Positions 15,001 through 18,000 of a DNA stretch of 64,000 nt are shown here, in pieces (the stretch's first letter is position 1; each line of letters opens with the position of its first letter). Position numbers: made by a program. Location of the stretch: the NCBI RefSeq assembly GCF_000026545.1, contig NC_011601.1, one strand, 5' to 3'. Origin of the DNA: Escherichia coli O127:H6 str. E2348/69 (GTDB taxonomy: Bacteria > Pseudomonadota > Gammaproteobacteria > Enterobacterales > Enterobacteriaceae).

Positions 15001-18000
15001 CGCAGGAACTGCCTGCCGTGTCGGTGTGGCTGAGTGATGCTCAGTACACCGGAAAAATGACGGATGAAGATGACTGGCAGGCTGTTCTGCATATTGCTGT
15101 CTTCATCCGGGCACAAGCACCGGATTCAGAGCTGGATATGTGGATGGAGAGCACCATTTTCCCGGCCCTGAATGATGTACCGGCACTTTCCGGACTCATC
15201 GACACCCTGATCCCACTCGGTTTTAACTATCAACGTGATAATGAGATGGCCACCTGGGCGATGGCGGAAATCACGTACCAGATCACGTACACGAATTAAG
15301 GAGGTGGTAATGACCACACCAAATCCACTGGCAAAAACGAAAGGTGCGGGAACGACGTTCTGGATGTATACCGGCAACGGCGACGCATTTGCGAACCCTT
15401 TGTCGGACACTGACTGGCTGCGTCTTGCGATGGTGAAGGATCTGCAACCTGGCGAAATGACCGCTGATGCAGAAGATGACACTTATCTCGATGATGAAGA
15501 TGCAGACTGGAAAACGACAACCCAGGGGCAGAAATCCGTTGGTGATACTTCGGCGACGCTGGCCTGGCGTCCGGGTGACAGCGGGCAGAAAAAACTGGTT
15601 CAGTTGTTCGACTCCGGTGAAGTCTGCGCGTTTCGTATCAAATATCCCAACGGCACTGTTGATGTTTTCCGTGGCTGGCTGAGCTCACTGGGTAAAACCA
15701 TTGCCTCAAAAGACGTGATGACCCGCACAGTGAAAATCAGCGGTGTGGGGCGTCCGTATCTGGCAGAGGAAGGCACTGAAACCGTGGGCGTTACCGGGCT
15801 GACGGTGGCACCGGCATCTGCCAGTGTAAAAGTGGGAGCAACCACCACGCTGACCTTTACAGTAAAACCTGACGGAGCCAGTGACAAAGCGATCAGTGTG
15901 CATTCGACAGATCCACAGACTGCCACGGTGACCCTGAACGGGCTTGTGGCCACGGTGAAAGGCGTGAAGCAGGGCAGTGTCAGCATTGTGGGCATGACTT
16001 CTGACGGCGATTTTGTGGCAGTGGCTACGGTGGCTGTCAGCGCCGCAGGTTAACAGGACGATACTCATCATTTGCCCCGGTTATCCGGGGCTTTTTTTCA
16101 GGTGGAGAACATGATGTTTCTGAAACAGGGCACGTTTAATTATGAAAAGCAGTCCGTGGTGCTCAGTGAGCTGTCCGGGCTGCAGAGAATTGAATATCTG
16201 GCGTTTGTTCAGCAGCGAACGGCAAAGTTTGATGCCGAAGAGGGAGAACTGCCGGAGGCTGAACGACAGATTGCTTTTCTGCGGATGGGGATGGATATCA
16301 ATGCCTGGCTGGTTTCCCGCTCACTGTGGAATGCGGATCAGTCTAAGGATGTAGAGACGCTTTGCGCATCCGTTATTACAACATGGTCGTATGATGCCCT
16401 GGGTGCGGGGGCGGAGATGGTTCTGTCGCTGAGCGGTATGGGGACCATTGATAATGCCGGGGATGATGAGCATGAGGCGCTGACGCCGGAAAAGTCCTGA
16501 CGCGGGAAATGCAGTTTGTCATGCGGCTTGCCCGGGAGTTCCGGCGGGCAGACTGGCGGCGGATGCTGTCGGAAATGTCGGCCACTGAGCTTGGTGAGTG
16601 GGGCGATTATTTCCGGATGCAGAGCTTCAGTGATGTGTGGATGGATGCGCAGTTTGCCTCGCTGAAGGCATTGATCGTGAGAATGGTGTCCGGCAGCAGT
16701 GATGCTGCGGTGGCTGATTTCAGCCTTTTACCGGAAGAGAACGGGATACCGGAGCGAACGGACGAAGAACTGATGCATCTTGGGGAAGGTATTTCCGGAG
16801 GTGTGCGTTATGGACCAGATAGCCAACCTGGTCATTGATTTGGGGATTGATGCGGCAGAGTTTAAAAATGAAATCCCCCGTATCAAAAACCTTCTGAATG
16901 GTGCAGCCAGCGATGCAGAACGGTCTTCTGCCCGTATGCAGCGTTTTATGGAGCGTCAGACTCAGGCCGCCCGGCAGACAACGCAGGCGGCTTCTTCGGC
17001 TGCAACAGCCGCATCCGTCCATGCGCAGACGGTGGAGAAGAACGCACAGGCTCATGAACGCATGGCCCGCGAGGTGGAGAAAACCCGCCAGCGCATGGAG
17101 GCGCTGAGCCAGAAAATGCGCGAGGAACAGGCGCAGGCCATGGCTCTGGCGGAGGCTCAGGATAAAGCGGCTGCTGCGTTTTATCGTCAGATTGACAGTG
17201 TGAAACAGGCCAGTGCGGGGCTGCAGGAATTACAGCGTATTCAGCAGCAGATCCGACAGGCCAGAAACAGTGGCGGGATTGGTCAGCAGGATTATCTGGC
17301 GCTGATTTCTGAGGTTACGGCGAAAACCCGTGTTCTTACACAGGCTGAGGAAGAGGGTACCCGACAGAAAGTGGCGTTTATCCGTCAGCTTAAAGAGCAG
17401 GCAACCCGCCAGAATCTTTCATCTTCTGAGTTGCTTCGTGCTAAGGCTGCCCAGCTGGGGGTAAGCAGTGCTGCAGAAGTGTATATCCGCAAAATGGAGC
17501 AGGCAGGAAAAGCCACGCATTCGCTGGGTCTGAAAAGTGCAGCGGCCCGCCAGGAGATAGGCGTTCTGATAGGTGAACTGGCCCGCGGCAATTTAGGGGC
17601 GCTGAGGGGATCCGGGATAACGCTGGCTAACCGTGCCGGATGGATAGACACACTGATGTCACCGAAAGGCATGATGCTGGGCGGGGTTATTGGCGGTATT
17701 GCCGCAGCTGTCTATGGTCTGGGTAAAGCCTGGTATGACGGTCAGAAGGAGGGGGAAGAATTTAACCGCCAGCTGTCGCTGACGGGGCATTATGCCGGAG
17801 TCACTGCCGGGCAGCTGTGGACGCTCAGTCGTGCTATTTCCGGGAATGGTATCACGCAACATGCTGCAGCCGGTGCGCTGGCTCAGGTGGTGGGGAGTGG
17901 TGCATTTCGTGGAAACGATATCGGTATGGTGGCGAGAGCTGCCGCACAGATGGAGCGATCGGTTGGCCAGTCGGTCAGCGATACCATAAGTCAGTTTAAG

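What the first reader, a model, noticed from the sequence alone, without database searches (positions are those of the whole stretch)
16476..16500. G/GT programmed -1 frameshift site is non-canonical
The T frame opens 22 nt before the G stop, as in lambda, so a -1 frameshift within 16476..16497 is expected. The only slippery-looking sequence there is CCGGAAAAG, not the lambda heptamer GGGAAAG.
Basis: partly seen in the sequence, partly recalled or inferred. Interest (0 to 1): 0.25.

Follow-up and report, generated by a model that had tools for sequence, protein, structure and literature searches.

The report
Known variant phage tail frameshift site
This is the ordinary ribosomal frameshift site that lets a lambda-like prophage make a small amount of a fused tail-assembly protein; its sequence, GGAAAAG, differs by one base from lambda's, but it is the commonest version in this gene family and public phage records already annotate it as such.

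Summary
The lambda gpG homolog is at 16111..16500. The -1 frame opens at 16476 and encodes a gpT homolog to 16838. The 22-nt overlap contains one shift-prone site, G_GAA_AAG at 16488..16494. It aligns with lambda's G_GGA_AAG, and the predicted fusion aligns with lambda GT in one piece, junction K|V matched.

The site is formally non-canonical: after a -1 slip, tRNA-Glu on GAA faces GGA, a G.U pair at the middle position. It is not new. GenBank records for phage N15 and phage LLS annotate GGAAAAG as the -1 frameshift site of the homologous genes. phi80, Gifsy-2, cdtI and mEp460 carry it too. In my survey of 46 lineages, 38 use GGAAAAG and 5 use lambda's GGGAAAG. The G at heptamer position 1 is kept at a synonymous codon position in 44 of 46.

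No downstream RNA structure is conserved. A Shine-Dalgarno-like GAGG lies 10 nt upstream. Such elements are enriched at that spacing in this subfamily, but this is suggestive only. No experiment has been done on this phage.

This copy also has a 1-nt deletion in its tape measure gene, so the prophage may be tail-defective.

Verdict: real feature, already known, low interest.

The parts
15310..16053 (+). Major tail (tube) protein gene, lambda V homolog with a C-terminal Ig-like domain. It is the upstream neighbour of G.
   Evidence: Pfam Phage_TTP_12 1.2e-66 and Big_2 1.7e-11. Corresponds to cdtI gp10 'major tail protein'.
16074..16098 (+). Terminator-like G+C-rich hairpin (GCCCCGG-TTAT-CCGGGGC) followed by T7, in the V-G intergenic space.
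   Evidence: Terminator scan. The same element is annotated as a rho-independent terminator in the mEp460 and Ayreon records and as a putative terminator stem-loop in N15.
16111..16500 (+). Tail assembly chaperone gene G (129 aa from ATG 16111; a second ATG at 16114), the zero-frame product.
   Evidence: Pfam Phage_TAC_2 6e-40. 100% identical to cdtI gp11. RefSeq names it 'phage tail assembly chaperone G'.
16473..16475 (+). TGA in the -1 frame. It is the last stop before the T frame opens at 16476 and sets the 5' limit for the shift.
   Evidence: Translation of the -1 frame.
16474..16477 (+). Shine-Dalgarno-like GAGG ending 10 nt before the heptamer. Candidate upstream stimulator; inferred, not shown.
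   Evidence: Spacing seen. SD stimulators of -1 shifts act at 9-14 nt (PMC5009743). Enrichment at 9-14 nt in this subfamily is 16/26 lineages against 8.85 +/- 1.95 under synonymous shuffles.
16488..16494 (+). Shift heptamer G_GAA_AAG. P-site codon GAA (Glu) re-pairs to GGA. A-site codon AAG (Lys) re-pairs to AAA.
   Evidence: Only in-phase Z_ZZN site in the overlap. Homologous to lambda G_GGA_AAG. Same heptamer annotated as the -1 site in N15 and LLS. Invariant in relatives.
16498..16500 (+). TGA stop of G, one codon after the heptamer. It sets the 3' limit for the shift.
16494..16838 (+). T segment read in the -1 frame after the shift (VLTREMQF...GPDSQPGH, 114 aa, then stop). With G residues 1-128 it gives a predicted 242-aa GT fusion.
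   Evidence: Pfam Phage_tail_T 5.1e-15. Predicted fusion built. It aligns in a single HSP with lambda GT (E 2e-43), N15 GT and Gifsy-2 GT.
16509..16511 (+). ATG used by database annotators as the start of a separate 'T' gene. Probably not the way T is made.
   Evidence: cdtI, mEp460 and RefSeq E2348/69 annotate T from this ATG. The position is CTT, CTG, CGT, CGG or ATT in Gifsy-2, N15, lambda and other lineages, and T-frame homology starts upstream of it.
16810..19865 (+). Tape measure gene (lambda H homolog), the client of G/GT. It is interrupted in this copy by a 1-nt deletion between 18921 and 18922.
   Evidence: Pfam TMP_2 1.2e-49 and TMP_4. Global alignment to cdtI gp13 shows one gap and 2 mismatches, CAGACGG to CAGCGG. 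RefSeq flags the identical E2348/69 gene as 'frameshifted'.

Best explanation
Most ribosomes translate G (16111..16500) and stop at TGA 16498. A small fraction slip back one base while GAA (Glu) and AAG (Lys) of the heptamer G_GAA_AAG (16488-16494) occupy the P and A sites. tRNA-Lys re-pairs perfectly from AAG to AAA. tRNA-Glu re-pairs from GAA to GGA, keeping positions 1 and 3 and making a G.U pair at position 2. Translation then continues in the -1 frame from GTC 16494 to 16838. The result is a 242-aa GT fusion (...ALTPEK|VLTREMQF...) whose G half binds the tape measure protein and whose T half recruits the tail tube protein, as in lambda.

Shown here: the gene identities, the frame architecture, the uniqueness of the site, its exact homology to lambda's site, and its strong conservation including synonymous positions.

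Inferred: that the shift happens in this phage, that it is a two-tRNA slip, and that its efficiency is low (somewhat below lambda's few percent). Also inferred, with low confidence, is that the GAGG 10 nt upstream helps by pairing with 16S rRNA.
For: Gene identity and order are V, G, T, H.

There is a single in-phase A_AAG in the 22-nt overlap.

The junction is homologous to lambda's experimentally established site, and the predicted GT aligns with lambda GT without a break, E 2e-43.

The N15 record marks GGAAAAG as 'slippery sequence for -1 translational frameshift'. The LLS record has a joined CDS and 'minus-one programmed translational frameshift site GGAAAAG'.

Across 206 loci and 46 lineages the heptamer is GGAAAAG in 38 and GGGAAAG in 5. 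Across these lineages the T frame opens as little as 3 nt before the heptamer, and the G stop can follow AAG directly. Only the heptamer is therefore available in every lineage.

The codon before GAA is CCG, GCG, CTG or ATG, so position 1 is G in 44/46, although G-ending codons make up only 34-54% of Pro/Ala/Leu codons in these genes. That region of the T frame is not translated, so this conservation points to a role in re-pairing.

No start codon for T is conserved.

In vivo in E. coli, in the dnaX context, A_GAA_AAG still gives 20% shifting against 57% for G_GGA_AAG. G_GAA_AAG additionally keeps the first P-site pair (PMC6787027 Suppl. Tables 3-4).

Phage records deposited under phage names (mEp460, Ayreon, Tritos, PhiR40_1) carry a G/T region at least 98% identical, and the three checked directly (cdtI, mEp460, Ayreon) have the identical junction.
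Against: There is no direct evidence for a GT product in this phage or any G_GAA_AAG phage in the sources I could read.

In a reconstituted E. coli system, G GAA AAG was used as the 'less slippery' control and gave mainly zero-frame product (PMC6924986).

Two Morganella lineages have A_GAA_AAG, so the position-1 G is not indispensable.

No conserved downstream stimulator exists.

The exact predicted fusion is absent from a 15-billion-protein collection, and database annotators call T as a separate gene.

This copy's tape measure gene is broken, so the site may no longer be under selection here.
Confidence: 0.75

Rival explanations
1. The shift happens at the same place but involves only tRNA-Lys slipping from AAG to AAA (tetramer A_AAG, or hexamer GAA_AAG of the NNA_AAG type). 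tRNA-Glu does not meaningfully re-pair, and the G at position 1 is irrelevant to the mechanism.
For: A_AAG is the most shift-prone tetramer in E. coli, and hexamers such as CGA_AAG are used naturally by IS1222 (PMC4066793; PMC5009743). [quoted passage not shown] The Morganella lineages use A_GAA_AAG.
Against: Position 1 is G in 44 of 46 lineages across four different preceding codons, at a synonymous site with no other coding constraint. Tetramers without a strong stimulator are barely above background, 0.147% against 0.112%, and no downstream stimulator is conserved here.
Confidence: 0.2
2. T is made as a free 109-aa protein from ATG 16509, for example by termination-reinitiation after the G stop 8 nt upstream, as the database annotations imply. 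No frameshift is needed.
For: An in-frame ATG exists at 16509 and is kept in the cdtI-like clades. GenBank and RefSeq annotate T this way.
Against: The ATG is not conserved. It is CTT in Gifsy-2, CTG in lambda and N15, and CGT, CGG or ATT elsewhere. T-frame homology to lambda GT begins at the heptamer, four codons upstream of the ATG. The only purine-rich stretch before the ATG (GGGAA) abuts it with about 2 nt spacing. The slip heptamer is conserved at synonymous sites, which free-standing T would not explain. In lambda, T exists only as GT (Levin et al. 1993, as summarised in PMC5009743).
Confidence: 0.06
3. In this particular copy the site is a relic. The prophage is tail-defective, so the frameshift signal, although intact, serves no current function.
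For: There is a 1-nt deletion in the tape measure gene relative to cdtI, causing a premature stop at 18939. RefSeq flags the same gene as frameshifted in E2348/69. Some related IMG/VR prophages have truncated T frames (L023, L028-L030).
Against: The G/T region itself is 100% identical to phage cdtI, so the signal is intact. The deletion could be recent or a sequencing error. This rival concerns present use, not what the element is.
Confidence: 0.3
4. The fusion arises from transcriptional slippage by RNA polymerase on the A run rather than from ribosomal slippage.
For: The site contains a run of A residues.
Against: The run is only 4 A. Bacterial transcriptional slippage is described for runs of about 9 A or T (PMC5009743).
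Confidence: 0.01

Closest known systems
Phage N15 genes 14/15 (GenBank NC_001901, misc_feature 10027..10033 'slippery sequence for -1 translational frameshift')
   Same: Identical heptamer GGAAAAG in the identical phase (GCG GAA AAG). Same gene family and the same V-G-T-H order, with the T frame in -1.
   Different: The G proteins are only about 33% identical. In N15, G runs on for 5 more codons after the heptamer, against 1 here. N15 has no SD-like element 9-14 nt upstream.
Phage lambda G/GT frameshift at G_GGA_AAG (Levin, Hendrix & Casjens 1993; Xu, Hendrix & Duda 2004, 2013, 2014, as summarised in PMC5009743)
   Same: Homologous proteins, homologous junction (K|V), a -1 shift near the end of G, and no conserved downstream structure.
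   Different: The P-site codon is GAA (Glu) instead of GGA (Gly), so P-site re-pairing has a middle-position G.U instead of being cognate. The overlap is 22 nt against 61 nt. Lambda's site is experimentally proven and this one is not.
Escherichia phage LLS (PQ299149) and phi80 (JX871397)
   Same: LLS has a joined 'tail assembly chaperone' CDS and a misc_feature naming GGAAAAG as the -1 programmed frameshift site. phi80 has GCG GAA AAG at the same position.
   Different: Both belong to the N15-like subfamily, with the stop 18 nt after AAG. phi80's record annotates T separately, without a join.
Gifsy-2 prophage STM1039 / STM1041.1n ('part of G+G' frameshift hybrid protein')
   Same: Closest relative outside the cdtI/mEp460 group, 56% aa identity. 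It has the identical ACGCCGGAAAAGTCCTGA and a GAGG 10 nt upstream.
   Different: The overlap is 28 nt. There is no ATG at the position equivalent to 16509.
E. coli dnaX A_AAA_AAG and its tested variants (Tsuchihashi & Brown 1992, tabulated in PMC6787027)
   Same: Same A-site event (tRNA-Lys AAG to AAA). The variant A_GAA_AAG, with tRNA-Glu in the P site, gave 20% in vivo. The SD stimulator lies about 10 nt upstream, as the GAGG does here.
   Different: dnaX also has a strong downstream stem-loop and shifts at about 50-80%. No such structure is present here. G_GAA_AAG itself was not in that data set.
Hexanucleotide NNA_AAG sites (CGA_AAG in IS1222 and B. subtilis cdd; Licznar et al. 2003, cited in PMC5009743 and PMC4066793)
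   Same: The A-site A_AAG slip is combined with a P-site codon that cannot re-pair cognately.
   Different: Those sites rely on strong stimulators such as pseudoknots. Here position 1 (G) gives partial P-site re-pairing, making it an intermediate between hexamer and heptamer.

Membership tests
Lambda-type G/GT tail assembly chaperone frameshift (conserved dsDNA-phage tail frameshift) | Two overlapping reading frames located between the major tail protein gene and the tape measure gene | tested here: met
   The order is V (15310-16053), G (16111-16500), T frame (16476-16838), H (16810-19865).
Lambda-type G/GT tail assembly chaperone frameshift (conserved dsDNA-phage tail frameshift) | The upstream frame encodes a gpG-family chaperone and the downstream frame a gpT-family domain | tested here: met
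   Pfam Phage_TAC_2 6e-40 and Phage_tail_T 5.1e-15, both above the curated cut-offs.
Lambda-type G/GT tail assembly chaperone frameshift (conserved dsDNA-phage tail frameshift) | The downstream frame is -1 relative to G and lacks a conserved start codon of its own | tested here: met
   Frame arithmetic and translation. ATG 16509 is present in this clade but replaced by non-start codons in Gifsy-2, N15, lambda and other lineages.
Lambda-type G/GT tail assembly chaperone frameshift (conserved dsDNA-phage tail frameshift) | A shift-prone sequence in phase inside the overlap, conserved among relatives | tested here: met
   G_GAA_AAG at 16488-16494. Across 46 lineages the heptamer is GGAAAAG in 38 and GGGAAAG in 5, and it is bracketed to within 3 nt.
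Lambda-type G/GT tail assembly chaperone frameshift (conserved dsDNA-phage tail frameshift) | A GT fusion protein is actually made at a low ratio to G and is needed for tail assembly | not testable with these tools
   Needs western blot, mass spectrometry or genetics. Only indirect support: phage records deposited under phage names carry the same junction.
Canonical X_XXY_YYZ slippery heptamer | XXX are three identical bases, so the P-site tRNA re-pairs at positions 1 and 2 in the -1 frame | tested here: not met
   Positions 1-3 are G, G, A. GAA re-pairs to GGA, which puts a G.U at the middle position for tRNA-Glu (sequence; same reasoning in PMC6924986).
Canonical X_XXY_YYZ slippery heptamer | YYY are three identical bases followed by Z, so the A-site tRNA re-pairs (A_AAG being the best case in E. 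coli) | tested here: met
   Positions 4-7 are A, A, A, G in phase. A_AAG ranks first among tetramers (PMC4066793).
dnaX-type stimulated -1 frameshift | An internal Shine-Dalgarno-like sequence 9-14 nt upstream of the shift site | tested here: inconclusive
   GAGG at 16474-16477, 10 nt upstream. Enriched in this subfamily (16/26 against 8.85 +/- 1.95), but lineages are related, the subgroup was chosen post hoc, and the element coincides with a conserved Glu codon.
dnaX-type stimulated -1 frameshift | A stable stem-loop or pseudoknot 5-8 nt downstream of the shift site | tested here: not met
   The fold of 16495-16594 has z = -0.96 against shuffles. The RNAalifold consensus over 24 lineages is -1.38 kcal/mol with no compensatory pairs.

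The most novel reading that the evidence does not exclude
In the cdtI/Gifsy-2 subfamily, where the G stop follows the heptamer almost at once, the weakened heptamer G_GAA_AAG may be made serviceable by a dnaX-like Shine-Dalgarno element placed 10 nt upstream (GAGG at 16474-16477). Biochemists use this heptamer as a poorly slippery control. If so, a tail-chaperone frameshift would use rRNA-mRNA pairing as its stimulator, whereas the N15-like and lambda-like subfamilies do without it. A related point I could not check against Xu et al. 2004 is that G_GAA_AAG, not lambda's G_GGA_AAG, is the predominant site of the gpG family.
Probability: 0.25. Interest if true: 0.35.

Novelty: already known. Interest (0 to 1): 0.15.

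Why it matters
Practically, it is an annotation point. GenBank and RefSeq records for this very common prophage module (1845 of 5426 complete E. coli genomes) list G and T as two separate genes starting T at an ATG. The biologically relevant product is most likely a G-T fusion made by ribosomal slippage at GGAAAAG.

Scientifically, it is a reminder that the textbook X_XXY_YYZ rule is too strict for bacterial phages. A heptamer used as a 'less slippery' control in ribosome biochemistry is the commonest natural site in this family. This fits the low (few percent) efficiency the G:GT ratio requires. Nothing here opens a new question beyond the modest SD-stimulator hypothesis.

Tried and rejected
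(1) Downstream stimulatory RNA structure. The single-sequence fold is not better than shuffles, and the consensus fold of 24 lineages shows nothing. Rejected.

(2) Over-representation of GGAAAAG in the window. 12 copies against 9.1 +/- 3.2 expected, not significant. The string alone carries no signal.

(3) Exact look-up of the predicted 242- and 241-aa GT fusion in the 15-billion-protein collection. Absent. This says only that nobody annotated this fusion.

(4) A joined-CDS annotation of the frameshift in close relatives. Six records were inspected: cdtI, mEp460, Ayreon, PhiR40_1, Gifsy-2 and RefSeq E2348/69. None has a joined CDS. Joins or site annotations were found only in N15, LLS and phage 21.

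(5) Primary papers. Xu et al. 2004 (Mol Cell) and Licznar et al. 2003 (EMBO J) are not held. I could not check whether they list or measured G_GAA_AAG. Full-text searches for GGAAAAG with phage, tail and slippery terms found only Peng et al. 2019.

(6) SD-like enrichment. With E. coli genome codon usage the signal looked strong (18/40 against 9.0). With the family's own codon usage it shrank to P about 0.015-0.02 overall. It is strong only in a post hoc subgroup, so it is kept as a hypothesis, not a finding.

(7) Transcriptional slippage. Rejected because the A run is only 4 nt.
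Full report
**What is at the coordinates.** The region lies in the tail-gene block of a lambda-like prophage.
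- ORF 16111..16500 (129 aa) matches Pfam Phage_TAC_2, the lambda gpG tail assembly chaperone, at 6e-40.
- The frame one base behind it, open from 16476 to 16838, matches Phage_tail_T at 5.1e-15.
- The gene before is a lambda-type tail tube protein with an Ig-like domain. The gene after is a tape measure protein.
- The 801 bases around the site are 100% identical to phage cdtI and 98-99% identical to the phage records mEp460, Ayreon, Tritos, HannyBb and the PhiR series.
- The module occurs at 95% identity or more in 1845 of 5426 complete E. coli genomes.

**Check of the observation.**
- In the G frame the sequence reads GAG GCG CTG ACG CCG GAA AAG TCC TGA, with the stop at 16498-16500.
- In the -1 frame a TGA at 16473-16475 is the last stop, and the frame then runs to 16838.
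- Scanning every in-phase position of the overlap for a Z_ZZN A-site motif gives one hit, G_GAA_AAG at 16488-16494.
- Lambda's GGGAAAG is not in the overlap.
- The remark 'as in lambda' is inexact: lambda's T frame opens 61 nt before its G stop.
- As a bare string the heptamer is unremarkable, with 12 copies in the window against 9.1 +/- 3.2 expected. Its meaning comes from phase, position and conservation.

**Homology of the site.**
- Lambda reads GCG GGA AAG at the corresponding place. The window reads CCG GAA AAG.
- I built the fusion that a -1 slip on AAG would give: G residues 1-128, then VLTREMQF.... BLASTP aligns it with lambda GT in one uninterrupted segment (E 2e-43), with the junction K|V matched: PEK|VLTREMQF against AGK|VFDGELSF. 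It aligns likewise with the N15 and Gifsy-2 fusions.
- The site is thus the exact homolog of lambda's experimentally established one. It differs by a single base, which turns the P-site codon from GGA into GAA.

**It is already known.**
- The GenBank record of phage N15 carries a misc_feature 'slippery sequence for -1 translational frameshift' at 10027..10033. The bases there are GGAAAAG, in the phase GCG GAA AAG.
- The record of phage LLS has a joined 'tail assembly chaperone' CDS and the feature 'minus-one programmed translational frameshift site GGAAAAG'.
- phi80 has GCG GAA AAG at the same place.
- Gifsy-2 is the nearest relative outside the cdtI group (56% identity). It has the identical ACGCCGGAAAAGTCCTGA, and its T gene is annotated as 'part of G+G' frameshift hybrid protein'.
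- The PRFect paper lists 'twofour' and 'twofive' motifs among those recovered from annotated tail-chaperone frameshifts, and it discusses GAA to GGA re-pairing through G.U (PMC10885494). By its name, GGAAAA fits 'twofour'. That is my inference, because the defining figure is not held.

**Family survey.** I collected homologous loci from three sources: one genome per species of the GTDB set (40 loci, all Enterobacterales apart from one metagenome bin labelled Collinsella), IMG/VR, and phage records.
- Of 206 usable loci there were 85 distinct junction sequences. I grouped these into 46 lineages by their upstream 30 nt.
- The heptamer is GGAAAAG in 38 lineages, GGGAAAG in 5, AGAAAAG in 2 (Morganella) and GGCAAAA in 1 (Ewingella).
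- The T frame opens as little as 3 nt before the heptamer in some lineages. In Proteus, Morganella and Ewingella the G stop follows the heptamer directly. The heptamer is therefore the only place where a shift could occur in all of them.
- The codon before GAA is CCG, GCG, CTG or ATG, and GCA only in Morganella. Heptamer position 1 is thus G in 44 of 46 lineages, although in these genes only 41% of Pro, 34% of Ala and 54% of Leu codons end in G.
- The T frame is not translated upstream of the shift. This synonymous-site conservation therefore has no coding explanation and argues that position 1 takes part in the slip.

**Mechanism.**
- The A-site event is the classic one. The single E. coli tRNA-Lys (mnm5s2U34) pairs better with AAA than with AAG (-2.9 to -4.6 kJ/mol; PMC6787027), and A_AAG is the most shift-prone tetramer (PMC4066793).
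- In the P site, tRNA-Glu moves from GAA to GGA. Positions 1 and 3 stay paired and position 2 becomes G.U.
- The dnaX-context in vivo data of Tsuchihashi and Brown, tabulated by Bock et al., give 81% for A_AAA_AAG, 57% for G_GGA_AAG and 20% for A_GAA_AAG. The last variant loses both the first and second P-site pairs (combined penalty 8.5 kJ/mol).
- G_GAA_AAG keeps the first pair. Under the additive model it should lie between 20% and 57% in that context, which is within about threefold of lambda's heptamer. This is an inference; the sequence itself was not in that data set.
- Against this, Peng et al. used G GAA AAG without stimulators in a reconstituted system as the 'less slippery' sequence and saw mainly zero-frame product (PMC6924986). 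Tetramers without stimulators are barely above background in vivo.
- A low efficiency is what the system needs. Lambda's G:GT ratio is about 30:1 (PMC5009743).

**Stimulators.**
- Downstream, nothing. The 100 nt after the heptamer fold no better than shuffles (z = -0.96). A consensus fold over 24 lineages gives -1.38 kcal/mol with no compensatory changes.
- Upstream, the window has GAGG at 16474-16477, ending 10 nt before the heptamer. This is inside the 9-14 nt range in which internal Shine-Dalgarno sequences stimulate -1 shifts (PMC5009743).
- The same spacing recurs with different intervening sequence in Gifsy-2 and in the L096, L107, L056, L073 and L079 lineages.
- I tested this against a null that keeps the G protein sequence and redraws synonymous codons from the family's own usage. 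SD-like tetramers at 9-14 nt occur in 19/46 lineages against 13.1 +/- 2.5 expected (P about 0.02).
- In the subfamily whose G stop lies within 6 nt of AAG, which includes the window, they occur in 16/26 against 8.85 +/- 1.95 (P about 0.0003). In the N15-like subfamily they occur in 3/20 against 4.3. At 15-20 nt they are depleted, 1/46 against 6.4.
- The lineages share ancestry, the subgroup was defined after looking, and the element overlaps a conserved Glu codon. I treat this as a hypothesis only.

**Rivals.**
- T made on its own from ATG 16509, as cdtI, mEp460 and RefSeq annotate it, is unlikely. That ATG is not conserved outside the cdtI-like clades, T-frame homology starts four codons upstream of it, and it would not explain the conserved heptamer.
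- A one-tRNA slip at A_AAG is a real mechanistic alternative. The position-1 conservation argues against it, but the Morganella A_GAA_AAG lineages show it can suffice.
- Transcriptional slippage is excluded by the short A run.

**State of this copy.** The tape measure gene (16810..19865) has a 1-nt deletion between 18921 and 18922 relative to cdtI (CAGACGG to CAGCGG; otherwise 2 mismatches in 3057 nt). This gives a stop at 18939. RefSeq flags the gene in E2348/69, whose G/T region is 100% identical, as 'frameshifted'. The prophage in the window may therefore be unable to build tails, and the intact frameshift signal may be a relic in this copy.

**Verdict.** The site is the standard one for this gene family and has been annotated as such in public records. 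Novelty: already known. Interest: low.

Noticed in passing
window 18921-18922 (within 16810-19865): The tape measure gene has a 1-nt deletion relative to phage cdtI (CAGACGG to CAGCGG). This splits it into ORFs 16780..18939 and 19023..19865. RefSeq marks the corresponding E2348/69 gene as 'frameshifted'. The prophage copy is probably tail-defective.
   Followed up: partly
window 16074-16098: A strong terminator-like hairpin (7 G-C pairs, loop TTAT) followed by T7 lies between the major tail gene V and G. The same element is annotated as a rho-independent terminator in mEp460 and Ayreon and as a putative terminator stem-loop in N15. It would lower transcription into G/T/H relative to V.
   Followed up: partly
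window 16509-16838; NC_009514 9396..9725; NZ_CP059840 H4J01_RS15585: Public annotations, including RefSeq for about a third of complete E. coli genomes, call T a separate gene starting at ATG 16509, with no ribosomal-slippage join. This is likely a systematic mis-annotation of the GT fusion.
   Followed up: partly
L064, L067, L068 (Morganella); L062 (Ewingella); L058-L060, L063 (Proteus): There are variant sites in other Enterobacterales prophages: A_GAA_AAG directly followed by TAA in Morganella, G_GCA_AAA followed by TAG in Ewingella, and G_GAA_AAG followed by TAG in Proteus. With the zero-frame stop immediately after the shift codon, these may work as 'shifty stop' sites rather than by tandem slippage.
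   Followed up: no
window 16474-16477 and the equivalent position in Gifsy-2 (L005), L056, L073, L079, L096, L107: GAGG, GGAGG or AGGAGG ends exactly 10 nt upstream of the heptamer in several lineages with otherwise different spacer sequence. SD-like tetramers are depleted at 15-20 nt upstream (1/46 against 6.4 expected).
   Followed up: partly
L023, L028, L029, L030, L186 (IMG/VR prophage contigs): The T frame is truncated to 37-62 codons in some otherwise near-identical prophage copies. This suggests decay of the tail module in resident prophages.
   Followed up: no
L077 (contig JAIJJM010000220.1, labelled MAG Collinsella sp.): A lambda-type G/T locus identical at the junction to the Escherichia albertii locus L075 sits on a 4.8-kb contig of a metagenome bin assigned to Collinsella, an actinobacterium. 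This is most likely a binning contaminant.
   Followed up: no
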